Origin: Parcubacteria group bacterium CG1_02_58_44
Lineage (GTDB): Bacteria > Patescibacteriota > Patescibacteriia > SG8-24
Length of the DNA: 64,000 nucleotides
Direction: 5' to 3'
Assembly (NCBI GenBank): GCA_001872545.1
Contig: MNWN01000011.1
Span: 2,089-66,088, forward strand
Shown: piece after piece, positions 2,943 through 58,590 of the stretch
How positions within the stretch are numbered: the first letter of the stretch is position 1
Layout of the letters: each line of letters begins with the position of its first letter
Notes under the pieces: generated by a model
The model's database searches: none
What the model was told of the DNA's origin: nothing
Seen by the model: only the letters and a program-made list of their open reading frames with translations
Position numbers and translations under genes: made by a program

Positions 2943-4086
2943 CGTTCTTTTGTAGGTTCTGTTCGTAGACGGTCAGCGTGCGGGCGGCCGTATCGCGCCA
3001 GCTGTAGCAGGCACACTGGATTCTTCCGGCCTCGATCAGTTTGGTTCGCAGTCCTTCGTCGTCGGCCAATTGTGACATGGCCGCGGCCATCGATTCGATG
3101 TCCTCCGGGTCGAAGTAGAGCGCAGCCTGGCCCAGCGTCTCCGGCAGGCACGATCGGTTCGAGGAGACGACCGGCAGTCCGTAGCTCATCGCCTCGAGCG
3201 GTGGGATGCCGAATCCCTCGCACAGCGACGGGAAGACGTAGAACGACGCGTTGCGATACAGGTCGGCCAGTTCCTCGTCGCTGGCCCGTCCGAAGAACGT
3301 CACCCCCAGGCCGAGTCGTTCGCGAGTCATCTCCTTCTGCAGTCGTTCGTAGAAGTAGTCGTTGGCTCCGACCAGCACCAGTCCGAAGTCCTCGTGGCCC
3401 TGTCGGCGGAAACGGTCGAATCCCTTGACCAAACGTTCCAGGTTCTTGTGCGGATAGGCACTGCCGACGTAGAGGGCATAGGGTTTTTTTGGTCCGACGG
3501 ACGTCTCGGCAGGTTGGTTTTCTTTTTGGTTTTCGCTGAACTTTTCTGAGCAGGCGCAGCCGGTTACGACGATCGACTTGTTTTTTGTCTTCGGAAAGAG
3601 TCGCTCGATCTCCTTTTTGGTCGTTTCGGAAACGGTCAGGATGGTCTTAGCCCGTCGGAGAGCGCTGGCCATGACCAGTCGGTAGGCTAGGTACTTCAGT
3701 CGGTAGGTCAGTGGGTTGAGAGTCGTCGAACGGACGGTCGGAAAGTGGAGCAGAATCAGGTCATGCACAGTCGTGACGAACGGCCGGCGGTACAGCAGGG
3801 GCACGTTGAAGTGGGGGAAGTGCATCAGGTCCAGGCGGAAGCGGCGCAGAAACAGCGGATAGAGGACCTGTTCATGCAGAGAGTAGCAGCGGTATTCGGC
3901 CAGCTCCTTGCGGAAGTTCGGCGCCGTCGGCCGGTAGTCGTCGAAGTTTTCCCGGCGCAGGAAAATGACGTATTCGTTCCGGTCGTCAATCCGTTCGAGG
4001 TGAGCGATCAGCTCGCTGACGTAGCGCCCCAGGCCCTTGCCGATTGTGCCGTAGAAACGGGCGTCGATGCCGATCTTCATGATCAT
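2917..4086 (-). CDS. Glycosyltransferase, GT-B fold (group 1/GT4 family)
   Basis: MKIGIDARFYG N-terminus. The C-terminal EGFGIPPLEAMSYGLPVVSS matches the GT4 E-x7-E region. The likely true start is the MKIG Met at about 4080. Confidence 0.85.
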   Translation of the reverse strand: MIMKIGIDARFYGTIGKGLGRYVSELIAHLERIDDRNEYVIFLRRENFDDYRPTAPNFRKELAEYRCYSLHEQVLYPLFLRRFRLDLMHFPHFNVPLLYRRPFVTTVHDLILLHFPTVRSTTLNPLTYRLKYLAYRLVMASALRRAKTILTVSETTKKEIERLFPKTKNKSIVVTGCACSEKFSENQKENQPAETSVGPKKPYALYVGSAYPHKNLERLVKGFDRFRRQGHEDFGLVLVGANDYFYERLQKEMTRERLGLGVTFFGRASDEELADLYRNASFYVFPSLCEGFGIPPLEAMSYGLPVVSSNRSCLPETLGQAALYFDPEDIESMAAAMSQLADDEGLRTKLIEAGRIQCACYSWRDTAARTLTVYEQNLQKNDERHQQTA

Positions 4087-10444: not shown

Positions 10445-10916
10445 CATCATGGCCGACCGGACGGTCGTCCTTGCCGCAAAAACAGGGCAGGGAAGGAAAG
10501 TCCGGACACCCCTCGAGCGGCAACGCCGAGGAAGCAGGTAGTCGCTAACGACGACCGGGAATAAGGTTTGACGGGCATTTCTCCTAGGAAACTGGAGAAG
10601 TCTCTGTCGGCCCCAAGCCTAGGGAAAGTGAAACAGAAAACACACCGCCCGAACCCGAGCGCAAGCGGAGGTGAGGCCTCGAGCGGAACCGAAAGGTTTC
10701 CTCGAGCCGGGTAAGGTTGAAAACGTGGGGTAAGGGCCCACGCGGGACAGCCGCGCGAGCGGCGCCGTGGAAAACCCTGCCTGGTGCAAGAGCAAGTTTG
10801 GTAGCTCGCTAGAGGCCGTCGGCAACGACGGTCCCAGATAGATGGCCGTCCGTTGTCCGGGATGCGTTCACGCGTGTCGGGCGACGACAGAATCCGGCTT
10901 ACAGGTCGACCATGAA
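10445..10916 (+). ncRNA. rnpB: RNase P RNA (bacterial type), larger than usual
   Basis: Conserved blocks are present: GGGAAGGAAAGTCCGGAC (P4 5' strand), GGGTAAGGTTGAAAACGTGGGGTAAGGGCCCACGCGGG (P10-P12 region) and ACAGAATCCGGCTTACAGG (P4 3' strand). Terminal complementary arms CATGGCCGACC...GGTCGACCATG form P1. The track ORFs overlapping this region are therefore spurious. Confidence 0.8.
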
Positions 10917-11099
10917 CCATCGAAAAATCCGCCTTTCCGGGCGGTTTTTCGTTTCTTGTACCTCTCACCCATTTTCCATTTTAGGACAGATAACCGTCTT
11001 TCCAGACGAGGTTTTTCCTTGACAGTTACTTCCCTCCTCCTCTTTCTGTTAAGATTTAAATTGAACCCATCAATTAATTTATCTCTAATTTAGAGAGAT

Positions 11100-18311: not shown

Positions 18312-18465
18312 CGTTTCCGATTCGAAAGATATCGTTGATTAGGTTAGTCGGCGAAGATGTCGCCATGCCACCGACGGAAAGTTCCGACGGCAGTTTACCT
18401 TTCGGCAGAATTGAGCAGGGGGCAGGAGGTGGAGGCTATCCGCTATTCAACTGTTCCGAAAATGA

Positions 18466-18545
18466 TCTCAGTCTGTCCTGCCGCTCCTGATGGACCCATA
18501 ACTGATGAGTCCGTCGGGAGTGGTGCCGTGGGTGGGATCGTCTCC
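18466..18545. repeat. Direct repeat copy 1, about 72 bp, containing a degenerate copy of the tRNA-Leu 3' end
   Basis: tctgtcctgccgctcctgatggacccataactgatgagtccgtcgggagtggtgccgtgggtgggat is nearly identical (1 mismatch) to 18678-18750. Confidence 0.7.
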
Positions 18546-18677
18546 TTGCCCGCCCGAACGGCGGGCTTCGTCACCTGGGCGGCGCCGGACCCTGCACCAG
18601 TTCGGGTCCGTCGGCACTCGCGCGCTCGCGTCTGGACGGACGCTCGCCGCTCGCTGCCGTCTGTTCAAATCCCTTCG

Positions 18678-18750
18678 ATTTTGGTCTGTCCTGCCGCTCC
18701 TGATGGACCCATAACTGATGAGTCCGTCGGGAGTGGTGCCGCGGGTGGGA
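18678..18750. repeat. Direct repeat copy 2, overlapping the 3' end of tRNA-Leu
   Basis: The same 72 bp sequence as copy 1. The last 17 nt are the complement of the tRNA-Leu 3' acceptor/T-arm end. Confidence 0.7.
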
Positions 18751-18820
18751 TTTGAACCCACACGGAGTTGCCCCCACTAGCTCCTGAAGCTAGCGTGTCT
18801 GCCAGTTTCACCACCGCGGC
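18734..18820 (-). tRNA. tRNA-Leu (anticodon CAG), class II with a long variable arm and genomically encoded CCA
   Basis: Reverse complement is GCCGCGGTGGTGAAACTGGCAGACACGCTAGCTTCAGGAGCTAGTGGGGGCAACTCCGTGTGGGTTCAAATCCCACCCGCGGCACCA. It has a 7 bp acceptor stem, the anticodon loop TTCAGGA, a 15 nt variable arm and a GTGGG/CCCAC T stem. Confidence 0.85.
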
Positions 18821-30234: not shown

Positions 30235-30783
30235 TTACTTCTTGTCGACCGGAACCTCCTTGAGGCGCTTCTTGTACTTGCCGCGCAGGAAGTAGAGCTT
30301 GGAGCGGCGGACGCGGACCTGCTTGACCACTTCGATCTTCTCGATCGTCGGCATGGCCAGCGGGAAAATGCGTTCGACGCCAAATCCCTTCGAAACCTTG
30401 CGTACCGTAATGGTGGCGCTGATCCGGTCATGACCCTTTTTGCCGATCACCAGTCCCTCGAAGATCTGGATGCGCTCGCGTTCGTCGCCGCGCGGAGTGA
30501 CGTCCTTAATCTTGAGGTGAACTCGGACCGTCATTCCGGGGACTATCTTCTGGGCCGACTCCTCCAGCTTGATTTCCTCGGCTACAGTCTCTTCGGCCGG
30601 GGCTTCTTCGCCTTCAGCAGGAGCTTCATCCTCGATTTCAGTCGGCATTTCCTTGGTTGCAGTATCCTCAACCGGGGTCTCTTCGCCTTCGGCTTGCGGC
30701 TGCACTTCGGTTTCGACCGGAGTCTCCTCGACCGGCGTCGTCTCAGTCGTTTCTTCGGTAGTCTTGTTGTCTTCTTCGGCCAT
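30235..30783 (-). CDS. rplS: 50S ribosomal protein L19 with about 75-100 aa acidic N-terminal extension
   Basis: The C-terminal part [85 protein letters not shown] matches L19. The N-terminus [27 protein letters not shown]... is Glu/Thr/Pro-rich. Start chosen at the internal ATG (30781-30783). Confidence 0.85.
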
Positions 30784-30953
30784 ATTTAGCTCAGTTGACG
30801 TATTTTTTGGGTCGATAACATCCGATTTTAGGCGGAATGTTTTCAGAACGAACCTAGCATACACGTAGGCTCGACTCAAGTCAAGCGGTCTTGGGTCAAA
30901 AAAGGAGCGTCATTTGGCTTCCTTTTTTGCATAACCGAGGCAAAAGTCGCGAT

Positions 30954-31964
30954 TCAGCCGGTGTCTTCGTCTGGACTGACCGAAGCCGTCCGGTTGGTCA
31001 GCCTTTCAGAGGTCTCACCACGTTTTCTTAATACGGTCAGGAAGGTCTCTAACTCCTGAGGCAGAGGTACGCTGAACTCCAGCCTTCGTCCATCCTTGGG
31101 GTGGCGGATGGCCAGGCGGCGGGCGTGCAGGAAGAGCCGGCCAACGGGTAGGGGAGACTTGCTCGGACCGTACAGCTTGTCGCCGGCCACCGGACAGCCG
31201 ATCGCCTTGAGGTGAGTCCTGATCTGATGCGTACGTCCGGTCTCGGTATGGACCGCGAGCAGCGCCGCTCCCGGCAGATATTCCTCGACCGAGTAGTGAG
31301 TAACGGCCGGACGGTCGCCTTCGAGCGGCTGACTGCGTGCGGCCATGCGTCGTTCGCTGGTCGAGCGTCCGATCGGCAGATCGATCGTACCTTCCTCGTT
31401 CGGCGGATTGCCGACGGTCAGCACCGCGTACTCCTTCTCCACGTCGTGGGTCTGAAAGCTCTTCTTGAGCGACTGATAGGCCAGGTCGGTCTTGGCTACG
31501 ACCATCAGTCCGGAAGCGTCCTTGTCGAGCCGATGCATGATGCCGGGGCGTTCGGGACCTTCGCCGATGTCCCTGATCGGCGGATAGTGGGCCAGGAGCG
31601 CGTTCGCCAAGGTGTCCTGCTCGTTGCGGACCGTCGCGTGGACCAGCAGGCCGGACGGCTTGTTGACCACGATCAGGTCGTCGTCTTCGTAGACGATCTC
31701 CAGACTGATGTCCGGCCGGGGCAGCAGCACGAACGGCGCGTCGCTGGCCGCCAGTGCGTCGTCGGAGAAGGTGATCAGGTCGCCAATGCGCAGCGCCTCA
31801 TGCGGTGACTTGGCCGGGCGTCCGTTCAGCTGGACCAGATTCCGCTTGATTACCTTCTGCACCGCGGAGCGTGAGATCGATCCGTCTCTCTCGGCCAGAA
31901 AGACATCAAGTCTCTTGCCGACGTCCTTTTCCTCGATTGTGATTTGGGTTTCCATAGCGAGCAT
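30954..31964 (-). CDS. rluD: RluA-family 23S rRNA pseudouridine synthase (RluD-like) with an N-terminal S4 domain
   Basis: IVYEDDDLIVVNKPSGLLVH and the catalytic motif HRLDKDASGLMVVAK. An S4-like N-terminus is present. Confidence 0.88.
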   Translation of the reverse strand: MLAMETQITIEEKDVGKRLDVFLAERDGSISRSAVQKVIKRNLVQLNGRPAKSPHEALRIGDLITFSDDALAASDAPFVLLPRPDISLEIVYEDDDLIVVNKPSGLLVHATVRNEQDTLANALLAHYPPIRDIGEGPERPGIMHRLDKDASGLMVVAKTDLAYQSLKKSFQTHDVEKEYAVLTVGNPPNEEGTIDLPIGRSTSERRMAARSQPLEGDRPAVTHYSVEEYLPGAALLAVHTETGRTHQIRTHLKAIGCPVAGDKLYGPSKSPLPVGRLFLHARRLAIRHPKDGRRLEFSVPLPQELETFLTVLRKRGETSERLTNRTASVSPDEDTG

Positions 31965-32158: not shown

Positions 32159-32234
32159 CGGCCCGTAGCTCAGTGGTTAGAGCGCCGCCCTTATAAGGCG
32201 GATGTCGGCGGTTCAAATCCGCCCGGGCCGACCA
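32159..32234 (+). tRNA. tRNA-Ile with genomic anticodon TAT (UAU), CCA encoded
   Basis: CGGCCCG TA GCTC AGTGGTTA GAGC G CCGCC CTTATAA GGCGG ATGTC GGCGG TTCAAAT CCGCC CGGGCCG A CCA gives a perfect cloverleaf. The anticodon loop has U33 and A37 with the anticodon UAU. Confidence 0.8.
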
Positions 32235-32484
32235 TTCTAGCCGAAAATTTGTTTTTTGAACGATGTTTTGTTTTCGTCAGTGTGTTCTCCAAGAAGGACT
32301 TGAAGGGTTGAGCCGTGAGCCGGCGAACGGCGAGAGGGGCGGCAAAAGCCGTCCGGGCTCAGAACATTTCAGTTTTTTGATCGAGGCCCTGCCGAGAAAC
32401 ACCTGTCCGGACAGAAACAAGCCCGTCTCAGTATGAGCGTTCGGTGTGCAGCCGCCCCGGTACCCGAGTCGGAGCGAGGGGAAG

Positions 32485-32503
32485 TCCGCCCGGGCCGACC
32501 ATT
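32485..32503 (+). repeat. Duplicated copy of the tRNA-Ile 3' end (tccgcccgggccgaccatt), about 270 bp downstream of the tRNA
   Basis: Exact 19 nt match to 32216-32234 plus 2 nt beyond the tRNA. Confidence 0.55.
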
Positions 32504-32881
32504 TAGAATCGTAGGTTTCGTTTTCAGTTCGCCATGAAAAAATGCGTCTCACGGCGCATTTTTGCGTTTTAATGGCTTGTTATCCCGGCATCAAAAACAT
32601 GTCATCCCGGCCCCCTAACCAATGTCATCCCGGGCCGAGACCCGGGATCCAGTGCCGTCTTGTCTTACCTTGGTCCCCACCTCCGCTAAAGCTACGGCGG
32701 GCAAGCCGGGTCAGGCCCGGAACGACAACAAAGAAGTCCGAGACTGTTAGAGAGAGGTATATGGGTGGCAATGACAAAGGCACTGTCTTTTTCGGCAAAT
32801 TCAAACCCCGGGCCTTGGCCAGAGGAGTGTCATTATTCTATAAGCTCCCCAGCGAAGCTGGGGTGTACGTTCGTAAAATAA

Positions 32882-32912: not shown

Positions 32913-34553
32913 CTACCTGTTCTTCTTTTGCGTTGCGCGCTGTTCGGCCCTTTCCCTTTTTCCTTCCCTCTCCTCGCCGAAGTTCTTTATCCAGCGCATA
33001 AGGCGTGACTTGGCGCCGCTCCTTATGTGGGAGCGGGCAGTCGAGGTCTTGATGAATGACAGCCAGTCCGGATTCGGGCTGGTTCGGTCCTTGTCGACGA
33101 TTATCTCGCAGCAGTCGCCGGAGAACAGGCGCGTCTCCAGGCTGACGATGTGGTCGTTGACGCGGGCGCCGACACAGGTATTTCCTATCTGCGAATGAAT
33201 GGCATAGGCGAAATCGACAGGTGTCGCACCTTCGGGCAGGTCGATGACGTCACCTTTCGGGGTGAAGACGAAGATTCGGTCCTGGAATACGTCGATCTTC
33301 AGGGTTTCCAGGGACTCCAGGAATTCCGTTCCGGTCTTGGTGTCCAGATTCTGCTTGGCCAGGTCCTTGACCCATTTCATCTGTTTCCGCACTTCGGCTG
33401 AAGCCTTGCCGGCCTCGTCGTACTGCCAATGGGCGGCAATGCCGCGTTCGGCCTCCTCGTGCATCCGTCTGGTGCGGATCTGGAACTCGACGATCTCTCC
33501 GCCCTCGCAGAAGACGGTCGTATGCAGCGACTGGTAGCCGTTCGGTTTGGGCTGGGAGATGTAGTCCTTGATGCGCCCCTTGAGCGGCTTCCAGGTCTGG
33601 TGGATGATCCCCAGTACCGCATAGCAGTCGCTCAGCCTGGGCACTATGATGCGCAGGGCGATGATGTCGTGAATTTGGATGATGTCGCGCTCATGCTTCA
33701 GCAGCTTTCGATAGAGGCTGTACTTGTGCTTGACGCGGCCTTCTATTGCCTCGAAGTTTATCTCGTTGCGCTTCAGTTCCGTATCGAGCAGCGTTTTGAC
33801 CTTTTCGACGTAGCCTTTCTTGACCTTGATCGCACGGTCGACCAGGTGGGTGACCCATTCGTATTCCTTCGGCATCGAATGCTTGAAGGACAGGTCCTCC
33901 AGTTTGGCCCGCATCTTGTTGATGCCCAGACGGTTGGCGATCGGAGCGTAGATCTCGAGCGACTCCTGTGCGATGCGTATCTGCTTGGCCGGCGGCAGGG
34001 CCGATAGGGTACTCAGGTTGTTGATCCGGTCGGCGAACTTTATCAGGATGACGCGAATGTCCGAGGCCATGGCCACGAACATCTTGCGTAGGTTCTCGAC
34101 GTAGCGGTCGATGCCGCGGTACTTTATCTTGCCGAGCTTGGTTATTCCGGCGACCATCGACGAGATGTCGTCGCCGAAGTTCTTGCGGATGTCCTCGATC
34201 GTCACTGGCGTGTCCTCCGGCACGTCATGCAGTAGTCCTGCGATGATGATCGATATAGGGACCTTCATTTCCGCCAGCAGCTCGGCCGTGGCCAGCGGAT
34301 GGACAATATATGGTTCGCCTGACTTCCTCTTCTGTCCCTGATGGGCATCGTTGGCGAAATCGAAAGCCAGACGCACCAGGTCAAGGTCCGCCTCGGGCTC
34401 GTACTTTCTGATCTTTTCCAGCAGTCCGTCGACGTTCGGTTTGGCCATACGTTCGGTTAGCTGATCGACTTTGCACGATATCATCTTAATCCAATCAAGT
34501 AAAGATTGGTAAGCGCGGCTTTTTTGGACCTGAAAACGGATGACTTTCGTCAT
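32913..34553 (-). CDS. rel: Bifunctional (p)ppGpp synthetase/hydrolase, RelA/SpoT family (HD + synthetase + TGS domains, apparently no ACT domain)
   Basis: The HD motif HPLATAELLAEMKVPISIIIAGLLHDVPEDT, the synthetase motif RIKDYISQPKPNGYQSLHTTV and the TGS-like GDVIDLPEGATPVDFAYAIHSQIGNTCVGARVN. At 546 aa it is shorter than canonical Rel. The start may be an internal Met. Confidence 0.85.
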   Translation of the reverse strand: MTKVIRFQVQKSRAYQSLLDWIKMISCKVDQLTERMAKPNVDGLLEKIRKYEPEADLDLVRLAFDFANDAHQGQKRKSGEPYIVHPLATAELLAEMKVPISIIIAGLLHDVPEDTPVTIEDIRKNFGDDISSMVAGITKLGKIKYRGIDRYVENLRKMFVAMASDIRVILIKFADRINNLSTLSALPPAKQIRIAQESLEIYAPIANRLGINKMRAKLEDLSFKHSMPKEYEWVTHLVDRAIKVKKGYVEKVKTLLDTELKRNEINFEAIEGRVKHKYSLYRKLLKHERDIIQIHDIIALRIIVPRLSDCYAVLGIIHQTWKPLKGRIKDYISQPKPNGYQSLHTTVFCEGGEIVEFQIRTRRMHEEAERGIAAHWQYDEAGKASAEVRKQMKWVKDLAKQNLDTKTGTEFLESLETLKIDVFQDRIFVFTPKGDVIDLPEGATPVDFAYAIHSQIGNTCVGARVNDHIVSLETRLFSGDCCEIIVDKDRTSPNPDWLSFIKTSTARSHIRSGAKSRLMRWIKNFGEEREGKRERAEQRATQKKNR

Positions 34554-47161: not shown

Positions 47162-50100
47162 ATGCGCATAGACCGAAAAAAATTGGTAACTGCCGCGGTG
47201 GTGGTCTTTGGTGTGGCCCTGCTCGTATTTCCGGTTTTGGCGCAGACCGATTTGGGTTTGGATTACGCAACGTCGACCGGTCTTGGTACGACCGACATCC
47301 GGACAATCATCGGCAACATCGTCAACTACTTCCTTGGGCTGTTGGGCATCATAGCCGTACTGCTGATCCTCTACGGCGGCTTTAAGTGGATGACGTCGCA
47401 GGGCAACGAGGAACAGGTCGCCGATGCGAAGAAGATCATCGTCTCCAGTGTCATCGGTTTGGCTATCATCCTGTCCGCTTTTGCCATCGCGCAATTTATT
47501 CTAAGAGCGATAATCTCTGGCACCGGATTCGAAGGTGATGTAGGGCCAGGAGGCGGACGGTGTCCGCCTGGAGAGGTCTGCGGCATACCTGGAGCCGGCT
47601 CCGGCGGGTTTAAAGTCTCCGGCGTGGTGCCGGCCGGCAACGGTCCGGGAGGTTCCGGCTGGCCCAAGAACTACGCCATTACCGTTGCCTTTAGCCATGA
47701 AGTCGCGGCGGCAACCGTTAACGGAACTTCCTTTGTGGTGGAGAGGTGCAATCCGCGGTTGTCTGGCGGTGACCCTGCTCCGTTCAATGAGAGGAATTGC
47801 AATACCGTAGTTTCGGGTACTCGGACAGTTGAGGCTAATCGAATAGTCTTTAGACCCGACGATACGCCTGGAGACTATCCTACCGATTTCGAAGAAGATT
47901 ATTGGTATCGGGTACGGGTACTCGGTGGCGACGTCACCGACGTTCGTGGTCGAATTCTGGTCTGTCCTTTCTTGCCGCCGGGTCCGGACGGTGACATTTC
48001 GTCACCACGTGCGCTGTCGAGCCTGTGCGACCGGGCCATGGCCTTCAACAACCTTCGCGATGTCGAACCTCCGACCGTCAGGATCGACTCTCCTGCTTCC
48101 GCACCAGCCTACTGCCTGGACCGGATTCGCATCCGGGCCAGGGTGGAGGACGACTTCCTTCCGTCAAGGGTCGACTTCATGTTGGATGGGGGTCTGGCTC
48201 ACTTGATGGACGCCGACGACGAGCCCCTGTTTAGCGTTATCAATGCCGCACTGGATAATCCGTTCCTGTCCGATTCGGTCTTCATCGATTCCTCGAGTTT
48301 GGCCGATGGCGAGCACACCCTGTCCGCCGTCGGTTACGACGGCGTGCCCCAGGCCAGTGAGGCGGTCGACAAGAGGTTCAGGATAAATCCGGCCCATTGC
48401 TGTGACAGCGTACTGGATGCCGAGCTGGGTGAGGATGAGATAGATTGCGGTGCGGAGTCCGGCTGTGGTGCATGTCCGGAAGGTTTGTGTACAGAAGATG
48501 CCGATTGCGCGTCGGGTCTCTGCGAATCAGGGCACTGTGTGGCACGTCCGACGATACTCGATGTCTCTCCACTGAGGGCCGGACCCGGGACGCTGGTGAC
48601 GATCAGCGGTCGGTACTTCGGCGGAACCATGGGTCAGGTAGTTTTCTTGGGTGGCGATACGGACGGGGACGGTGAGGAGGCGGGGGATGACGACGACAGG
48701 TCGGCGGCTGCCTGTTCGCCCTGGTCCTGGTCCGACGATGAGGTAGTGGTCGCAGTTCCGGACGGAGCGGTCACCGGACCGCTGCAGCTGATCACCTCAG
48801 CCGGAACTTCGGATCGCACTGACGATGATTTTGAGCCGATGATCGGTGCCTTCTCTGTCAATGACGAGGTTTTCCCCGGAATCTGCTATCTGGAACCGAG
48901 TACAGGATCGGCCGGCGATCGGTTCATCGCCCACGGTGCCGGCTTTGGGGATGCCATGGGTGCCAGCCTGATCAGGATGGGTGGGGTGAGCGCCGACGTG
49001 GCGGCCGGAGGCTGGACGGCCTCGGCCGTTTCCGCCGCCGTTCCGTCCGTGCTGGCCGAGGGTATCTATCAGGTTGGGGTGATGGTCGGCGGACTGGACG
49101 GCATCGCGACTAACCAGCTCAACTTTACCCTGCGACGCCGCGACGAGGACGTCGGACCGCGAATAATCGAGATACTCCCGTCTTCCGGTCCGGTCGGCTC
49201 CTATGTCACCCTGCGCGGCACCGGTTTTGGACGGCGTAAGGGATTGGTCAGGTTTTTTTCTTCGCCGGACGGAGTCGACGGAATCGATTCGGCCATAGCC
49301 GCCGATCCGATCTGCGACGACAACTGGCATGATAACTACATCGTCGTAAAAGTACCGGACAAGTACATTGGCGACCTGGACATCGATCTAATTCGTCATC
49401 GGGTAGAGGTCGAGACGGCCGCTCCGGCTCAAACCAGTAACCGAGTAGACTTTTTGATCGATGGCAGTCCGTTGACGCCAGGAATGTGCTCGATTACGCC
49501 TGACAACGGCAAACCGGGCATACCTGTGATCGTATCGGGCGAGGGTTTCGGGCCGGGTCCGGCCAACGTAGACGCTCCCGGTTTCGCTGGGTTTGACGGC
49601 CGTCAGCCGGAAAGTTCGCTTCGTTTTTACGTTTCTGGGGCGGCGGCTGCTCCTGGTTTGATGGACGGCTTGATTACCAAGCCGTCGACGGCCTATTTGT
49701 GGTCTAGAACATCCGTCCGATCGGCGATCCCCGGCAATCCGGCCGACCGGAGCACTTGGCCGAATTCCGGTCCGGTTTTTGTCGTGGCTCGTAATGTGGC
49801 CACCCGCAATCCGATTCCGTTCAAGATTGGCGACTGCAATGACGATGGGATTTGCGAGGAGGGGACAACCTGCTGTGCCAACGGTTCGTGCCGTGAGTCC
49901 TGCGAACCGGAGGCTCGGAACAGTAAGTTCGGCTGGTACTTCAGTACCGACGTCCTACCTACCTTGCCCGTAGTGATACAGCGATCTTCCTGCAATATGG
50001 TGGCCGGCACCATTCAAAGTCCGACACCACAACACAGGGCGACCGATGCCTGTCGCAATGCTGAGGCGGCTGTGGAGTTTAGTCAGCCGATGAATATCGG

Positions 50101-53100
50101 TTCGCTGGACGATCCTGAGTCGCTGCTCATTGAGGAATGCGGTAGCGGTCGCGATATCGACTGTGCCGACCCACCAGTTGTCGTGCCGATCGCCAGACCG
50201 GTCGGGACTGACCTGACTGCAGACGGCATGACTATTCTTTCCATCCATCCGAGCAGTTTGGTTTATCCGCCGAACGATCTCGATGATGACGAGAACGAGC
50301 CGTTTACCGGTTACTTCAAGATCGGCACTTGGTATCGGGTGACCTTGGTTTCCAAACCGGGCGAAGTCGGCATTTTCGACACGACCGGCCGGTATCTGGA
50401 CGGAGATTATGATCGACGGGCCGGTGGTAATTTCACCTGGACTTTCAGGACAAGGACCGATCCGGCGGCCTGCGCTGCCGACAGCGTCATGGTCCTGCCG
50501 TCACGCTATACGATCACCCATCAGGGCATGCCCCCGGATCCGGACATCGGATTTAGCGCCGCACTGATGAACGGAGCCAACTGCAACAGGCTGCAGTGCG
50601 TCGGCCGTGAAGGCTTTGACCTGAGATGGTCGAGCGATCCGGGTGTATTCATCAGTTTGCTTGGTGCCGGTCCGGTCGCCGGATGTCGACAGCAGGTTAC
50701 AGGTCTGCTCGAGACCCCCGTTGACGCACCGGAAAGACTGACTGTATCCCTGCGGCCGGTCGGTGAGCTGCTGGACCGCAGGAGCACTTCGGCAGTGTCC
50801 GTAGCCTTCGCCGATCCGCGGGTAGTGCGGGTCATGCCGACTGAAGGCTGCACTGAGGCCTGTGTCAACGCGGTGGTCGGCGCGGTTTTCAACATACCGA
50901 TGAGTGCGCGGTCTTTCGCCGGAAACGTCGAACTGCTGCAGTGCCGCAACTCTTCCTGCAACCCACCTTTCGTTCCGATTGAGTTTACGGTCACGTCAGT
51001 CAGGGACGATGGTATCCGTGTGCTTCCGCTCGGCGATCCCGATGCGGTCCTTCAGGTCAGGATAGAGCCGGTTCCTGATGTCGGGGAGATGCCAAGGTTG
51101 ACGCCTGATACCTTCTTTAAGGTCAGAATCAGGGGCGGAGCCGACGGGGTTCTTTCCACGAGTGACATACCGCTCACTGGACTCAACACGCCCGGCTTTT
51201 ACGAATGGAAATTTAAGACTAGGACCGACGGCAGCATCTGCGAGATCTCTCGGGCGGAGATTGTTCCGCCTAACGCCACCTTGCGTTACGTAAGCGAACG
51301 TTTCGGCCTCAGTGTCGGAGCGTACGGACCGGCTGGTGACGAGTGCAGTCCCGACGGTCAGGAGATAAACGCCTGGGGCTATGATTGGGACTGGTCGGTC
51401 GATCCGAATCCCGTCCTGGTCGGTTTCATCAGGGCTAGAGATGTTGGTTCGGAAACCGGAATAGGCATCAGAGTCGACACGAATCCAGCGCCGAGGCGCG
51501 GCTGCGACAGCCAATGTCTGTTGGTCGGCTCGACCGATGTCGTTTCGCAGTGCGGAAACACCGATCCGGCTGATCCTCGTCCGCCTAGGGATCGGGCCGA
51601 GATTGGGGAGGACTGCGACGATGGCGATATCGACGGAGGCGACGGCTGCAGCGCGAACTGCCTGGCCGAAGGTTCTGCCTTCCCGACTTGCGGCAACGGC
51701 CGGTTGGATTCGGGGGAGCTGTGTGAGGCGCTTCCCGATGGGGAAGGGACCTTAGTCTTTCCGTTGGGCTGCAAGGATCCCAATATAAATATTGATGACA
51801 GGCCTGAACTTAACGACATAGGCTGTATTTTCTTGGGGTCTACGGCTGGAGGGTCGGTCTGTGGCGACGGTATTTGGGGTGACGGCGAAGCCTGTGAGGA
51901 CGGAAACCGACGCGATGGCGATGGCTGCAGCGCGGACTGTCTTCATGAAGGGACGTTTTCTATATGTACGGACGCTACGCCGGTGGACGTAAGATGCGTC
52001 AGTCAGTGCGGCAATGCCCATATTGAGCCGGGCGAGGATCCGGACTGTGACTTGGCCGGAGGCGTCGCATTGGGTTGCGATTTGCACTCTTGCACTAAGA
52101 CCGGTTCGGAGTCAGCTCAATGTTTGAATGATCATCTAGATCCGGGGGAGGAGTGTAGAGATGGAAATACTGATAACGGCGACGGCTGCAGCAGCCGCTG
52201 TCTGCTTGAAGGATCGTCGGCCTTCTATCGGGTACCTTCCTTTTGTGGTGACGGGTTTGTCGGACAGGGCGAGCATTCGTACTGTGACGGTGACGAAGTT
52301 GAGCCCGACAGGCTGATTGACAGTCGACAGATTACGGTCGCCGGAGACTACGATTCGACCGCCGGCGCCGCTACGACGAGCGTAGTGCATGCTTCGGTCG
52401 ATCGGCTGCCGGAAGGTTCCAGGGGTAACTCACGCGTGACGCTGACCTGTAACTGCAGCTCACAGGTCAGTCCCGACGGGTACTGTTTGGGACTGCTGGA
52501 CGGAGTGCCGGCCGCCCTGCGGCCGCCGGCCGGTTTGGCCTGCGCCGATTCGGGCTGCTGCGCACCTAGACCTTACGGCAGGCTGACCTATCCGGTTGAG
52601 GGCTCGGTCGGTATCTGCCGCAACACCGCCATACACTTGGAATTCGATCAGCCCATGAACGCCACTTCAATTAGTCAGAATCTATTGATCGGCGTCGACA
52701 GTGGTCCAGACGGCTGTCCGGCGGCTTTGGACGGCGGTCCAGATGAGAGCGGGGTCATTGAAGTACCGCCCTTCCCTCCGCCCCTGCCTGGACCGTTGGC
52801 CGTTGGGCCTGGCGGCCTGCTTCGTCGGGCTTGGTCGGCTGTCGCTGCATTTTTCGGTGACCTGTTCGGCCGGCCGGCTGCAGGTCATGCCCTCGGTATC
52901 CCGCATACCCATTTCTGCTCGATCACTGGAGATGTCACCGTTAGACTGACGGACGAGTCTAGAACCGAGGTCGAGTTTATGCTCGATCACGCCTTGCCTG
53001 CGGGAACCAGAATTAGGGTTAGGGTCCAGCCGGATGCCAGGACGATCGGCGGAGTCAGAATTAATCCGGCCGGACTGACTGCTGAGTTCACCACCGGTGA

Positions 53101-56100
53101 TCTGATCTGCGCCGTCGATCGCGTGATCGTCAGTCCGGAATCGGTCTTGCTGAACAGCGTTCGGGCTCCGGACCGGCCTCTCGTGGCTCGTGGCGTGTCC
53201 GACGACCGCGGCATTCGTGTCGACGGCGATGCCGCTAGTCTGATCGTGCCGACCAGGGAATACTCTTGGTCATGGGAATGGCTGCCGCTCTCTGAGAGGC
53301 TGCCGCATGTCTCTCCGGCCGTACTGAATCCGGTCACTGTCGGAGGGCGGCAGAGCGAGCGAGCGATGGTTCGGGTCAGGGGGCGCGAAACCGGGGACGA
53401 TCCGATCGGATACGTGCCGCAGGACGGTGTTGTAAATGTTTCGGTCAATGCTGTCACCGTCAATCCTGACGGTTCCGTTGCCCGTCTGCCGGTACTCGAC
53501 GGGCTTACCGGTCTGCCCGTACCAGATGAGTTCGTACTCCCTGGTAGTTCAACGGTTACGGTCGCGCTTTGTGACGTCATCTGGCCAAAGGTTCAGACCT
53601 GCGGCGATGATGGGAGGCTGCATCTGCCTTGGGATCCGGACAATCTACTCAATCCGCTCCATGGTGAAGAATGTTCGGCTGGAGTGGAACAGTTCTGGTA
53701 TCCCTTCACGGATCCGGAAACGAAAGCCAGCTTCTACTACTGCCGTGACATCTCGGGAGGCGACGGCGACGATCTTCTGCCGGCCATCGATGAGGATTTC
53801 GTTCTCGTCCACCCGGGCGGCGACATCCTGCACGAGTATCTCTTCACCTTTGCCGGCGCTGGGGCCGGTGATGCTTGGCAGAAAGATGCCGTAGGTTTCC
53901 GGACAATGTACAACCCGAGGCATATCGGCGTGGCCGACTGGTATCGCGACCGCGGTTTCTCCGGTGCGCCGATGCCGTTCAATGTCGACGGATACGACGC
54001 CATGAAGGAAGGTCGGACCGTCTACGTCAATTCCGCGTTTCTGGACGACACCCTGCATCTTTCCACTAACGTCAACGTCTTTTCGTTCAGTGACGGGTCC
54101 GCACCGGAGACGGTCACGGTCTTCAACCAGATAATGAATCGCATCAACTTCAACCGGCAGTCGGGACTCATGGACACTTTCATCTGTCAGGACGACGGCC
54201 GGGCGGTCTTGGACGAGGGCGGAAGCGCTTTGACCTGTTCCATCGATCTCGACTGCACGACAGGCACCTGTGGTGTCCCGAAGTCGAAGCTCGTACGTGA
54301 CGTGCGACGCTGGTCGGACCTTCACACCATGAGGTCTCTTCTCATGGCCAATCGTCCGCTTCCGACATTGGGCGAAGGCACCTTCATACGCTCCAGGACG
54401 TACAGCATCTGGCCGTCATGGGGCGACGTCCTGTCCCTGTCCGTCGGACGAACCATGCCGTCGGATCCCATAAACGCATTGGCATCTTGTTCGAGCGACG
54501 GTTTTGATTCGGAGACCTGCTGGAATTCGGTCAGTCGTGAGTTCAGTTGCGGAAGCCGTTCCAGCATCTATAGGTATCAGATCTTGGCCGGTCAGGCCGA
54601 TCTGTCCGTAGACATGGAGCTGGTCGGTCCGAAATGGAAAGGCACGACCTGCATCGAGATAACGGACAGTGTTGCCTGTGGGGCCATGTCTGGCTGTGTC
54701 TGGACAGGCGCTCCACCGAGCGGTAGCTGCAACTACGAGACCGTCAGGTTCCGTGCCTATGGGATAAACGCCGGTGCCGACATGTGTACCGGAGCGGTTG
54801 AGAGTGAGGAGGCGGGCTGCGGTAACGGCATCATCAATTCCGGTGAGGCCTGCGAACTGGGAGACCTCAGGACTCAGGAAGGAGCAGACGGTATCTGTGT
54901 CGGCGGAACCGTGGAGCAGGCCTGCACGTCGGACTGTCGCGGCTGGGAGGACGTACCCGGAACCTGCCGGATCGGCTACTGCGGCGACGGACGGAGACAG
55001 GGGGCCGAAACCTGCGATGACGGACCGCTCAACGGGACGTACGGGCACTGCAACGGCATCTGCAGAGGTTCGACCTTTTACTGTGGCGATGGTCTGTCCC
55101 ATCCCAGTGAGCTGTGCGATTGCGGCAGCTTGAATGGAAGTTATGCGGTCAACGCGGTTATTGCGCCATCGGGTGGGGTTCGTGCTTGTAGCACTGAAGA
55201 ACCGCGCACTGGGGCTAGTTTCGCTTCCTGTTCCTGGGATTGCCGTGGTCCGGCTCCGCACTGCGGCGACGGCATCATCAACGGCGTCGAGCAGTGCGAT
55301 GGCGGTTCTGAGGAGAGTCGTGGCGTTTGTCGGCGACCGGCTGACGACCCGCTGCATCCGTCGGGAGGCACCTGCACGGCAGACGCCGACTGCAATCTCG
55401 CGGGCGGGGAGCGCTGCGTGACCTGTCTGACTGTCGAACAGAGGTTCCGTCGGGCCTGCAACCCGAATAACGTCACTTCGGCCGATGACGAAAGAGATGG
55501 AGTGCCCAATCAGTCCTGTCACTGGAGTGCCTGGTCGTGTACCGCCCCCGGACGTTGCGGCAACGGCGTGACCGAGACCGGCGAGCAGTGCGACGACGGC
55601 AACGACGAGGATAACGATGCCTGCACCAGCGCCTGCATCAGCAACGTCTGCGGCGACGGATTCGTGAACGCGGCCGGCGGCGAGCTGTGCGACAGCGGCG
55701 GAAGGAACAACACTCCCTGCGTGCCCGAGTACGGGCATACCTGCAACTACTGCACTTCGGCCTGCCGATTGGGTACGGTTTCTGGCGGCTACTGCGGCGA
55801 CGGCCTGCTCCAGAACGCCAGTTCGGAGATACCGGGTCCCGAACAGTGCGACACGCACGGTGTGGTCATCGGTGACGGTTGGGTCTGCGTCAGCACCAGG
55901 CCCAAGGACAGGAGCTTCGGTACGCAGACCGGCTACGGCATCTGCTCGCTGAGCGGATGTGGCTACTCCTGTGCGGACAGAGATTCGGAGCTGTGCCAGA
56001 ATGATGCACTCGATGGCAATTCAGACCTCATACTTCCCGAAAGTTTTGAGGTAAGCATGGCGTCCAGGCCTGAATCCTGCGCCTTTATGGATTACGTTCC

Positions 56101-57777: not shown

Positions 57778-58590
57778 TTGCAGGGTAACCAGAATCGCAT
57801 TCATATGTTCGAAGAGCAGAACGAGCCGGTAGACATATTTTCGGAAACGGAACCGGCCAAGGACGGCGGCATCAGTCCGTCGGTCGGCAGCCAACCTCCG
57901 GTTATGGGCGGATCGCCGCCGTCTTCCGGAACTTTACCTACACCGGTGTCTGGCATAACTCCCCAGATAGACATCGCCGCATCTAGGGGTCCGTCCAAGA
58001 TCCTGTTCGTCGTAATTTTTCTGCTGCTGGTCGGTGCAGTCGGCGTCGGTATCTGGTATTTCGTTCTTAGTGGCGACGGTGCAGTTCCGGTCGGGAACGA
58101 GCCGGCCGACGTCAATTCGAACGATTCCGGTTCGGCGATAGACGTTCAGATTCCGGAGCCGGAGAATCGATCGCTTTGCGGTAACGGAGTCTGCGATCTG
58201 GATGAGGACAAGTTCTCATGTCCGGCGGACTGTCCGCTGATTTCGCCCGTTTGCGGCGACGGCATCTGTCAGGCCGACGAGGGCAGCTTGGACTGTCCGG
58301 CCGACTGCCAGGCCACTCCCGACGAGCCGGTCATGCCGCCGGAACCGGCGAATCAGCCGCTCGACACGGACGGCGACGGCCTGAGTGACGCCGAGGAGAC
58401 GGCACTCGGCACCAATCCGCAGATGGCCGACACTGACGCCGACGGGCTGACGGACCGGGAGGAACTGCGTCAGTACTCGACCGATCCGACCAGTCCGGAC
58501 TCGGACGGCGACGGCTATATCGACGGCGAGGAGGTGTGGGCCGGTTACGACCCCAACGGCCCAGGCAAGCTGCTTAACTTGCCCCAGTAG
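57778..58590 (+). CDS. Single-pass membrane protein with two CGxGxC..CPADC Cys motifs and Asp-rich TSP3/calcium-binding-like repeats; paralog 2 of 3
   Basis: [128 protein letters not shown]. Confidence 0.6.

What the first reader, a model, noticed from the sequence alone, without database searches (positions are those of the whole stretch)
32159..32234. tRNA-Ile encoded with a genomic UAU anticodon
The cloverleaf is perfect and the anticodon loop reads C-U-U-A-U-A-A, i.e. anticodon UAU, which pairs with the AUA codon. Most bacteria decode AUA with a tRNA-Ile2 whose genomic CAU anticodon is converted to lysidine by TilS. A genomically encoded UAU isoacceptor is rare and is known from a few reduced genomes (established knowledge, e.g. 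Mycoplasma mobile). It raises the questions of how misreading of AUG is avoided and whether tilS is absent in this organism.
Basis: partly seen in the sequence, partly recalled or inferred. Interest (0 to 1): 0.55.

Follow-up and report, generated by a model that had tools for sequence, protein, structure and literature searches.

The report
AUA-reading isoleucine tRNA, UAU anticodon
This is a genuine, conserved isoleucine tRNA gene with a UAU anticodon in a Candidatus Uhrbacteria (CPR) genome; such genes prove to be common in CPR bacteria, so it is a new member of a known kind.

Summary
ARAGORN and Rfam both call a 76-nt tRNA at 32159-32234 (+), with anticodon loop CUUAUAA, discriminator A73 and an encoded CCA end. 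The window comes from Candidatus Uhrbacteria (CPR/Patescibacteria, 58% GC). The identical gene is present in seven independent assemblies.

It is not a pseudogene:
- Close relatives carry it at 89-97% identity.
- 104 distinct homologues keep every stem through compensatory changes, and all have A73.
- AUA is used at 7.9 per 1000 codons, including in ftsZ, ftsA, topA and relA.
- The 13 AUA sites in RelA align with Ile (67%), not Met (2%), in 118 homologues.

The claim that such genes are rare does not hold in current sequence data. In Saccharibacteria-like contigs, 58 of 66 ftsH loci carry the tRNA.

I could not determine whether this genome lacks tilS. No TilS is encoded in the window, its flanks or any fetched locus. 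However, one cultured CPR bacterium (Southlakia) has TilS, three CAU tRNAs and no second tRNA-Ile.

Verdict: a new member of a known kind, of moderate-to-low interest. The worthwhile lead is that decoding of AUA without lysidine may be widespread in CPR.

The parts
32159..32234 (+). tRNA-Ile(UAU) gene, 76 nt, CCA encoded, discriminator A73
   Evidence: ARAGORN. Rfam RF00005, 75.9 bits. Cloverleaf minimum-free-energy fold. Identical in seven assemblies. 89-97% identical copies in the Uhrbacteria relatives L347, L348 and L349.
32192..32194 (+). Anticodon TAT (U34 A35 U36) within the loop CTTATAA (32190-32196)
   Evidence: ARAGORN places the anticodon at position 34. Read directly.
32482..32503 (+). 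Direct repeat (21 of 22 nt) of the tRNA 3' end (32215-32236). An att-like scar bounding a 267-bp insert downstream of the tRNA.
   Evidence: Repeat family D17. Present in all five assemblies that cover it. In the closest relative, L349, a 3.2-kb block (TrmB ... YkuD) lies between relA and the tRNA 3' end.
32538..32563 (+). Terminator-like hairpin followed by a T-rich tail, downstream of the tRNA and of the repeat
   Evidence: Consensus scan. This is a pattern match only; function is not shown.
30954..31964 (-). RluD-type (RluA-family) pseudouridine synthase gene, divergent from the tRNA with a 194-bp gap. A conserved neighbour of tRNA-Ile(UAU) across CPR.
   Evidence: Pfam S4 + PseudoU_synth_2. 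NCBIfam TIGR00005 at 260 bits, closest equivalog RluD. 39% identity to E. coli RluD. Adjacent to the tRNA in 16 genome loci and in L347 and L348.
30235..30879 (-). rplS (ribosomal protein L19), part of the conserved tRNA-rluD-rplS block. The real start codon is probably downstream of the ORF start listed.
   Evidence: Pfam Ribosomal_L19. Synteny.
32913..34553 (-). relA/spoT-family gene, the neighbour on the tRNA 3' side. It carries 13 AUA codons, which were used to test the meaning of AUA.
   Evidence: Pfam and NCBIfam. Codon counts. AUA-site analysis.

Best explanation
The gene encodes a functional minor isoleucine tRNA. Its transcribed UAU anticodon pairs directly with the AUA codon, so AUA is read as Ile without converting a CAU anticodon to lysidine.

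The tRNA is an old, vertically inherited member of a family that is widespread in CPR/Patescibacteria. That family usually sits in a housekeeping block: rpsA-ftsH-tRNA-Ile(UAU)-tRNA-Val-rluD-rplS in several CPR classes, and tRNA-rluD-rplS-uvrA in the Uhrbacteria/Magasanikbacteria group.

Inferred, not shown:
- In this organism it is the only AUA decoder, that is, there is no TilS and no tRNA-Ile2(CAU).
- Its IleRS accepts U34, either through a type-2 (archaeal/eukaryote-like) C-terminal domain or through a basic residue at the E. coli W905 position.
- AUG misreading is limited as in Mycoplasma mobile and the Bacillus subtilis suppressor strain: an unmodified or minimally modified U34 binds G poorly, tRNA-Met competes for AUG, and the ribosome may contribute.
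For: Shown:
- A canonical tRNA with UAU and A73.
- The identical gene in seven assemblies.
- Conservation in other Uhrbacteria, with compensatory T-stem changes (GGCGG/CCGCC versus GGTGG/CCACC).
- Among 104 distinct homologues, 95-104 form standard pairs at every stem position, with 3-6 pair types at most positions. The innermost T-stem pair is invariant G-C. A73 is present in 104 of 104.
- AUA is used at 7.85 per 1000 codons (14% of Ile codons) in 34 CDS, including ftsZ, ftsA, topA, der and relA. E. coli uses 4.9 per 1000 and a 67% GC Burkholderia 0.6 (PMC12514573).
- The 13 AUA sites of RelA align with Ile 67%, Val 12%, Leu 9% and Met 2% in 118 homologues. This matches AUC sites (63% Ile) and differs from AUG sites (61% Met).
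- Housekeeping context and conserved synteny.

Suggestive for 'sole decoder':
- No TilS in the window, in about 15 kb of flanking contig, or in about 5,500 ORFs of all CPR loci fetched, using an HMM built from 154 TilS sequences at E <= 10. There is also no SGGxDS motif.
- CPR tRNA clusters hold an initiator tRNA, one other CAU tRNA and the UAU tRNA, never a third CAU tRNA.
- Southlakia, which has TilS, has three CAU tRNAs and only one tRNA-Ile.
- The Minisyncoccus IleRS carries the DUF5915 C-terminal domain.
Against: - The whole genome could not be searched, so the absence of tilS and of tRNA-Ile2(CAU) is untested.
- TilS does exist in CPR: Southlakia SEML1_0730, called essential in two of three analyses.
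- Bacteria with both systems are documented.
- The second CAU tRNA in the Uhrbacteria relatives (GGCGAGG...CUCAUAA...) was taken to be elongator tRNA-Met. It could not be formally distinguished from tRNA-Ile2.
- Aminoacylation, the modification state of U34 and expression were not tested. No sigma-70 consensus promoter was found upstream.
Confidence: 0.6

Rival explanations
1. The tRNA is functional but redundant. The genome also encodes TilS and a tRNA-Ile2(CAU), so AUA is read by both LAU and UAU anticodons. This is the 'transition state' of Taniguchi et al., as in Lactobacillus casei and L. plantarum, Cyanothece and Ferrimonas.
For: Co-occurrence is documented in other bacteria (PMC3575796). 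TilS exists in at least one CPR genome. Only about 80 kb of a genome of roughly 1 Mb was visible. One CAU tRNA of unproven identity sits near the UAU tRNA in the closest relative.
Against: No TilS was found in any of the loci sampled. In UAU-bearing CPR the gene upstream of ftsH is rpsA, not tilS. In TilS-bearing Southlakia, tilS abuts ftsH. The tRNA clusters show two CAU tRNAs plus UAU, never three CAU tRNAs plus UAU. AUA usage is high for a 58% GC genome, consistent with an efficient dedicated decoder.
Confidence: 0.3
2. The gene is a pseudogene or a tRNA of another identity, for example a mutated tRNA-Ile(GAU), Met, Lys or Asn gene that is not charged with isoleucine or not used.
For: A single G34-to-T change can create a TAT gene. 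The Flavobacterium MAG L119 has GAT and TAT copies identical apart from position 34. One ftsH-adjacent homologue, L165, has UGU instead of UAU. Overall sequence identity discriminates isotypes poorly.
Against: - The cloverleaf is perfect and the model score high.
- UAU and A73 are conserved in more than 100 species, with compensatory stem changes.
- The gene is conserved in Uhrbacteria relatives at 55-96% protein identity.
- AUA codons are frequent and sit at positions where homologues conserve Ile.
Confidence: 0.03
3. The tRNA is cargo of, or was recently delivered by, a phage or integrative element. tRNA(UAU) genes are common in phages, and the tRNA 3' end is duplicated 267 bp downstream.
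For: There is an att-like 22-nt repeat of the tRNA 3' end. Variable island content lies between relA and the tRNA in relatives.
Against: - The best viral match is only 83% identical over 71 nt, and the att core is absent from the sampled viral loci.
- The flanking genes are housekeeping genes.
- The tRNA-rluD-rplS arrangement is shared with relatives down to 36-55% RluD identity and across CPR classes.
- The repeat is best read as the tRNA serving as an integration target, not as cargo.
Confidence: 0.03

Closest known systems
Mycoplasma mobile tRNA-Ile2(UAU) (Taniguchi et al. 2013, PMC3575796)
   Same: A bacterial, genomically encoded UAU anticodon with A37 and A38 in the loop, in a reduced genome, with AUA read as Ile.
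   Different: For M. mobile the following were shown experimentally: loss of tilS, an unmodified U34, IleRS Arg865, and rejection of AUG by its own ribosome. None of these is known here. This organism is a 58% GC CPR bacterium, and the gene belongs to a large, old CPR family rather than a recent single-lineage change.
Bifidobacterium and Neorickettsia tRNA-Ile(UAU) with eukaryote-type IleRS (PMC3575796)
   Same: A UAU tRNA in bacteria, plausibly charged by a type-2 IleRS. One CPR bacterium (Minisyncoccus) has an IleRS with the DUF5915 C-terminal domain. That DUF5915 marks type 2 is from my memory of Pfam.
   Different: The IleRS of this Uhrbacterium was not seen, and its tilS status is unknown.
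Bacteria carrying both tilS and tRNA-Ile(UAU): Lactobacillus casei and L. plantarum, Cyanothece PCC 7424, Ferrimonas balearica (PMC3575796)
   Same: This would be the matching case if tilS turns out to be present.
   Different: In those lineages the UAU gene occurs sporadically. Here it is conserved across CPR classes in a fixed gene block.
Bacillus subtilis tilS-deletion suppressor tRNA1-Ile(G34U) (Kohrer et al. 2014, PMC3919564)
   Same: It shows that an unmodified U34 tRNA-Ile can support AUA decoding, with only about 1 in 1000 AUG misreading and normal growth. This is the mechanism assumed here.
   Different: It is a laboratory mutant derived from tRNA-Ile1(GAU), not a natural conserved isoacceptor.
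Canonical bacterial tRNA-Ile2(CAU) plus TilS (lysidine)
   Same: It has the same decoding task (AUA). The D arm GCUCAGUGGUUAGAGC, the pairs C4-G69, C5-G68 and C6-G67, and A73 resemble E. coli tRNA-Ile2 (E. coli sequence recalled from memory; printed for comparison).
   Different: The anticodon is TAT in the DNA, so no C34 is available for TilS.
Eukaryotic tRNA-Ile(PsiAPsi); archaeal tRNA-Ile(UAU) of Nanoarchaeum and Korarchaeum; phage-encoded tRNA-Ile(UAU)
   Same: They use a U-type wobble base to read AUA. DPANN archaea and viral contigs were also hit by the same pattern.
   Different: They belong to different domains or replicons. Pseudouridylation of U34 and U36 is established only in eukaryotes.

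Membership tests
Bacterial tRNA-Ile(UAU) AUA decoder | Canonical cloverleaf tRNA gene whose DNA encodes anticodon TAT in a 7-nt loop with U33 and A37 | tested here: met
   Loop CUUAUAA; 75.9 bits to RF00005.
Bacterial tRNA-Ile(UAU) AUA decoder | Isoleucine identity elements outside the anticodon (E. coli set, from memory: A73, A37/A38, C4-G69, U12-A23, C29-G41) | tested here: inconclusive
   A73, A37, A38, C4-G69 and U12-A23 are present. Position 29-41 is G-C rather than C-G. A73 is invariant in 104 homologues. IleRS determinants in CPR are unknown, and overall identity does not separate isotypes.
Bacterial tRNA-Ile(UAU) AUA decoder | AUA codons are used and mean isoleucine | tested here: met
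   138 AUA codons in 17,572 codons. AUA sites in RelA align with Ile 67% and Met 2% in 118 homologues.
Bacterial tRNA-Ile(UAU) AUA decoder | Gene under purifying selection (conserved in relatives, with compensatory stem changes) | tested here: met
   Synteny.
Bacterial tRNA-Ile(UAU) AUA decoder | Charged with Ile by an IleRS adapted to U34 (Arg or Lys at the E. coli W905 position, or a type-2 IleRS) | not testable with these tools
   No IleRS lies in the window or in any fetched locus. The class-I synthetase hits near the tRNA are ValRS, LeuRS and MetRS. The only lead is Minisyncoccus IleRS with DUF5915.
TilS-independent (lysidine-free) AUA decoding system, M. mobile type | No tilS gene and no tRNA-Ile2(CAU) gene in the genome | not testable with these tools
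   - No TilS in 64 kb plus about 15 kb of flanks, nor in any locus.
- The rest of the genome is out of reach.
- The homologue search lists only the 120 closest proteins.
- The ten short representatives whose names I looked up, out of the top 150, included no CPR organism.
TilS-independent (lysidine-free) AUA decoding system, M. mobile type | U34 unmodified, and AUG rejected on the cognate ribosome | not testable with these tools
   Requires tRNA mass spectrometry and A-site binding assays.
Canonical tRNA-Ile2(CAU)/lysidine system | Genomic CAT anticodon to be modified at C34 by TilS | tested here: not met
   The anticodon is TAT in all seven assemblies and in the relatives.
tRNA pseudogene or mobile-element cargo tRNA | Degraded structure, lack of conservation, or a phage/island gene context | tested here: not met
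   Intact cloverleaf. Conserved. Housekeeping neighbours. Best viral match 83%. The att-like repeat lies downstream of an intact tRNA.

The most novel reading that the evidence does not exclude
Decoding of AUA without lysidine, through a genomically encoded tRNA-Ile(UAU), is not a curiosity of a few reduced genomes. It is the prevailing and possibly ancestral state over large parts of the Candidate Phyla Radiation: Saccharibacteria, Paceibacteria/Parcubacteria, Microgenomates, Dojkabacteria, and Magasanikbacteria/Uhrbacteria.

Under this reading the gene is fixed in a conserved rpsA-ftsH-tRNA-Ile(UAU)-tRNA-Val-rluD-rplS block, and TilS is retained only in some lineages such as Southlakia. That would make CPR the largest bacterial group that dispenses with the otherwise near-universal and essential TilS.

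A more speculative extension, about 5% likely: the RluD-type pseudouridine synthase that so often neighbours the gene modifies U34 or U36, as in the eukaryotic PsiAPsi anticodon.
Probability: 0.4. Interest if true: 0.55.

Novelty: new member of a known kind. Interest (0 to 1): 0.35.

Why it matters
TilS is regarded as a near-universal, essential, bacteria-specific enzyme and has been discussed as a drug target. How a U34 tRNA can read AUA without misreading AUG is a long-standing question about decoding.

This single gene adds nothing new in principle. But the survey it prompted shows the same tRNA in at least 120 species genomes, mostly CPR, and in 58 of 66 Saccharibacteria-like ftsH loci. 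No paper in the searchable library links lysidine or tilS with CPR/Patescibacteria.

If the UAU-bearing CPR lineages lack TilS, a major bacterial radiation uses the decoding route that Taniguchi et al. proposed as the primitive one. Cultivable CPR strains would then be natural systems for studying IleRS and ribosome adaptations that keep AUA and AUG apart.

Tried and rejected
1. Looking for TilS and IleRS.
- Pfam was run on 30 window proteins.
- The contig was extended by 10 kb on the left and about 9 kb on the right.
- phmmer was run with E. coli, Geobacillus and Aquifex TilS, and a 154-sequence TilS HMM was run over all ORFs of all loci.
- A regex for the motif SGGxDS was also run.
- Nothing was found. 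The hits to E. coli IleRS were ValRS, LeuRS and MetRS.

2. Reaching a CPR TilS through the protein databases, in order to ask whether this genome has one.
- The Aquifex TilS query returned only Aquificae.
- The exhaustive search of cluster representatives gave 51,384 TilS-like clusters.
- Of its top 150, the ten short ones whose names I looked up were from Aquificota, Thermotogae, Bacteroidia and similar, with none from CPR.
- The chain was abandoned, so whole-genome tilS status stays open.

3. The hypothesis that tilS sits upstream of ftsH and was replaced in UAU-bearing genomes. In these genomes the upstream gene is rpsA. This is suggestive, but not evidence that tilS is absent.

4. Looking for a CAU tRNA at the orthologous position (next to rluD or ftsH) in relatives. 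None was found in 80 metagenome loci or in the Uhrbacteria relatives. An origin by a C34-to-U transition therefore could not be shown.

5. Phage origin. Rejected.

6. A functional link between the adjacent RluD-type gene and the tRNA. The adjacency is part of a larger housekeeping block, and the enzyme is closest to 23S rRNA RluD. It is kept only as a low-probability idea.

7. A sigma-70 promoter scan upstream of the tRNA found no match above threshold.

8. Supplementary Table S1 of Taniguchi et al. is not held in the library.

Full report
**Observation.** ARAGORN finds three tRNA genes in the window. One is tRNA-Ile with anticodon tat at 32159-32234 on the + strand. Rfam's tRNA model matches the same place at 75.9 bits (gathering score 29), and the minimum-free-energy fold of the 76 nt is a clean cloverleaf at -37.6 kcal/mol.

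Read from the sequence:
- The acceptor stem is C1-G72 to G7-C66.
- The D arm is GCUC/GAGC with an 8-nt loop.
- The anticodon stem is CCGCC/GGCGG.
- The anticodon loop is CUUAUAA.
- The T arm is GGCGG/CCGCC.
- The discriminator is A73, and CCA is encoded.

The same 76 nt are present in seven independently assembled contigs from NCBI, ENA, JGI and Logan, so it is not an assembly artefact.

**Source and context.** Exact-sequence look-ups name the organism as Candidatus Uhrbacteria bacterium CG_4_10_14_0_8_um_filter_58_22 / Parcubacteria group bacterium CG1_02_58_44. This is a CPR/Patescibacteria MAG from Crystal Geyser with about 58% GC. Gene content fits CPR: T4SS-pilin proteins, DUF4012 and a 3358-residue surface protein.

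The tRNA lies between an RluD-type pseudouridine synthase gene and a relA/spoT gene. The synthase gene is divergent, 194 bp away, and is followed by rplS and uvrA. The relA/spoT gene is followed by topA, dprA, pth and der. All of these are housekeeping genes.

**Is it used?** In 34 confident CDS of the window, AUA occurs 138 times in 17,572 codons (7.85 per 1000, 14% of Ile codons). That is about as often as AUU, and it occurs in essential genes: ftsZ 5, ftsA 6, topA 3, der 3, relA 13. For comparison, a recent survey gives 4.9 per 1000 for E. coli and 0.6 for a 67% GC Burkholderia (PMC12514573).

I aligned RelA with 118 homologues of less than 80% identity:

| Codon in this genome | Sites | Ile in homologues | Met in homologues |
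|---|---|---|---|
| AUA | 13 | 67% | 2% |
| AUC | 33 | 63% | 5% |
| AUG | 11 | 10% | 61% |

At AUA sites the homologues also show Val 12% and Leu 9%. Several AUA sites are more than 90% Ile. AUA therefore means isoleucine here and needs an efficient decoder.

**Is it conserved?** A pattern requiring only the D arm and the loop CTTATAA, with all stems free, was scanned over one genome per species (185,579 species). Sixty records are labelled as CPR lineages:
- Parcubacteria/Paceibacteria
- Saccharibacteria
- Magasanikbacteria, Uhrbacteria, Falkowbacteria, Kuenenbacteria
- Dojkabacteria
- Peribacteria/Peregrinibacteria
- Woesebacteria, Shapirobacteria, Microgenomates and others

Twelve more are DPANN archaea and ten are Ignavibacteria/Bacteroidota. 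The rest are unlabelled, or carry labels such as 'uncultured Gammaproteobacteria' although two of those (L088, L103) share the rluD adjacency seen in CPR loci, plus a few from other phyla.

ARAGORN calls tRNA-Ile(tat) in 111 of these loci. In 104 distinct sequences every stem position forms a standard pair in 95-104 cases. Most positions show three to six pair types; acceptor pair 5, for example, is C-G 49, G-C 26, A-U 17, U-G 5, U-A 4 and G-U 3. The innermost T-stem pair is invariant G-C. The discriminator is A in all 104. This is the signature of a functional RNA family.

Within the Uhrbacteria group, loci found through RluD and RelA homologues carry the same tRNA at 96% (L347), 97% (L349) and 89% (L348) identity. 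They include a compensatory T-stem change.

**Synteny.** The tRNA is next to the RluD-type gene in 16 of the genome loci, from Magasanikbacteria, Saccharibacteria, Paceibacteria/Minisyncoccia and Parcubacteria. It is also next to it in L347 and L348.

In 18 loci ftsH is nearby as well. The recurrent order is rpsA-ftsH-tRNA-Ile(UAU)-(tRNA-Val)-rluD-rplS-tRNA-Leu.

An independent sample of 80 metagenome contigs, fetched with a Saccharibacteria FtsH, gave 66 loci with enough downstream sequence. Of these, 58 carry tRNA-Ile(UAU). None carries a CAU tRNA or a TilS-like ORF. The gene is therefore old and vertically inherited within CPR. The idea that it is rare does not survive contact with current data.

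The best viral match to this tRNA is only 83%, so a phage origin is not supported.

**The tilS question.** This is the part I could not settle.
- No TilS is encoded in the window.
- None is in the 10 kb and roughly 9 kb of contig beyond its two ends.
- None is in any ORF of 80 residues or more in the loci fetched or in the eight Uhrbacteria loci. This used an HMM built from 154 diverse TilS sequences at E <= 10, and no SGGxDS motif was found either.
Attempts to reach a CPR TilS through the protein databases failed, because only the closest 120 to 150 relatives of a query are listed.

Indirect evidence points both ways.
- Against a blanket 'CPR lack TilS': the cultured saccharibacterium Southlakia epibionticum has TilS (SEML1_0730, next to ftsH, essential in two of three analyses), three 'tRNA-Met' (CAU) genes and only one tRNA-Ile (PMC10633639 supplement). 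That is the canonical system without a UAU gene.
- For mutual exclusion: UAU-bearing CPR loci show an initiator tRNA, one other CAU tRNA and the UAU tRNA, never a third CAU tRNA. Their ftsH is preceded by rpsA, not tilS.
- In the gene tables of Minisyncoccus archaeiphilus, which are truncated in storage, the only 'lysidine synthase' is a misnamed amidotransferase. Its IleRS carries the DUF5915 C-terminal domain, which I recall marks type-2 IleRS.

I put roughly 60% on this Uhrbacterium lacking TilS and 30% on redundancy.

**Mechanism.**
- Shown: the DNA encodes UAU; AUA is frequent and means Ile; the tRNA is under selection.
- From established knowledge: U34 pairs with A. IleRS must accept U34, and E. 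coli-type IleRS with Trp905 does so poorly, whereas Arg or Lys at that site or a eukaryote-type IleRS does so well (PMC3575796). An unmodified U34 tRNA-Ile binds AUG only weakly on B. subtilis ribosomes, and not at all on M. mobile ribosomes (PMC3919564; PMC3575796).
- Inferred for this organism: the same logic applies.

**Comparison with known systems and novelty.** Bacterial tRNA-Ile(UAU) is an established kind:
- M. mobile
- Bifidobacterium and Neorickettsia
- Lactobacillus and others that have both systems
- 19 species in tRNADB-CE (PMC4013482)
- 371 distinct TAT tDNAs already noted in metagenomes in 2013

This gene is a new member of that kind. What may not be written down is that the family is pervasive and syntenic across CPR. 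No paper in the library holds lysidine together with Patescibacteria, or tilS together with 'Candidate Phyla Radiation'. That is a lead, not a result of this window.

**Side observations.**
- The last 22 nt of the tRNA (with CCA and two further bases) are repeated 267 bp downstream, just before a terminator-like hairpin.
- In the closest relative, a 3.2-kb block (TrmB-like regulator, small ORFs, YkuD protein) lies between relA and the tRNA 3' end. The tRNA has evidently served as an integration site, and only a scar remains here.
- tRNA-Leu(CAG) at 18734-18820 shows a similar 75-nt duplication.

**Verdict.** This is a new member of a known kind, with interest 0.35.

Noticed in passing
window 32215-32236 and 32482-32503; hairpin 32538-32563: The 3' 22 nt of tRNA-Ile are directly repeated (21 of 22) 267 bp downstream, just before a terminator-like hairpin. 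This looks like the attL/attR scar of an element integrated into the tRNA 3' end. It is fixed in all five assemblies that cover it. In the closest relative (L349) a 3.2-kb TrmB...YkuD block occupies the corresponding position.
   Followed up: partly
window 18464-18538 and 18677-18751 (tRNA-Leu(CAG) at 18734-18820, - strand): A 75-nt direct repeat (95% identity, 213 bp apart) covers the last 18 nt of tRNA-Leu plus downstream sequence. This is a second att-like duplication at a tRNA 3' end.
   Followed up: no
L038, L055, L031, L101, L107, L060, L113, L112 and others; L139-L218: A conserved CPR gene block, rpsA-ftsH-tRNA-Ile(UAU)-tRNA-Val-rluD-rplS-tRNA-Leu(GAG), is present in Saccharibacteria, Paceibacteria and Parcubacteria. 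Of 66 metagenome ftsH loci with enough flank, 58 carry the UAU tRNA, and none has a CAU tRNA or TilS.
   Followed up: yes
L165:2064-2136: At the position downstream of ftsH where relatives have tRNA-Ile(UAU), this contig has a tRNA with anticodon UGU (called Thr) and the same anticodon stem as the UAU tRNA of its relative L164. This is either an A35-to-G anticodon shift or a sequencing error.
   Followed up: no
L119:3276-3349 and 3390-3463: A Flavobacterium MAG has tRNA-Ile(GAT) and tRNA-Ile(TAT) genes identical apart from position 34, 40 bp apart on opposite strands. This is a recent origin of a UAU gene from tRNA-Ile1, as in the B. subtilis suppressor strain.
   Followed up: no
L009, L018, L053, L059, L116: Microgenomates-type loci carry an unusual 71-nt CAU tRNA (TGCGGGGTAGTGTACGGCTGCACG...) with a U1-A72 pair and an atypical D arm, next to an ordinary CAU tRNA and the UAU tRNA. 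It may be their initiator tRNA.
   Followed up: no
window 10449-10917 (+): Bacterial RNase P RNA, class A (Rfam, 169.9 bits). The 173-residue ORF on the opposite strand (10447-10968) is therefore spurious.
   Followed up: no
window 47162-57238 (+) and 57778-58590: A 3358-residue ORF has an N-terminal T4SS-pilin/TrbC-like region and many Cys-rich CGDG...C repeats. It is followed by a protein with bacterial TSP3 repeats. Together these look like a CPR surface or attachment locus.
   Followed up: no
L346 (closest relative, RluD 88%) versus the window: In the closest relative the tRNA is not next to rluD. A DDE transposase and small ORFs lie upstream of rluD there, and the tRNA sits 3.2 kb from relA with parBA on its 5' side. 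The tRNA therefore marks a rearrangement breakpoint between close strains.
   Followed up: partly
Supplement of PMC10936435, gene PMX_810_sub_00091: In Minisyncoccus archaeiphilus, a gene that Prokka named 'tRNA(Ile)-lysidine synthase' has as its best hit an N-acetyl sugar amidotransferase, with generic PP-loop Pfam domains and no K04075 assignment. It is probably a misannotation. TilS calls in CPR genomes need checking.
   Followed up: partly
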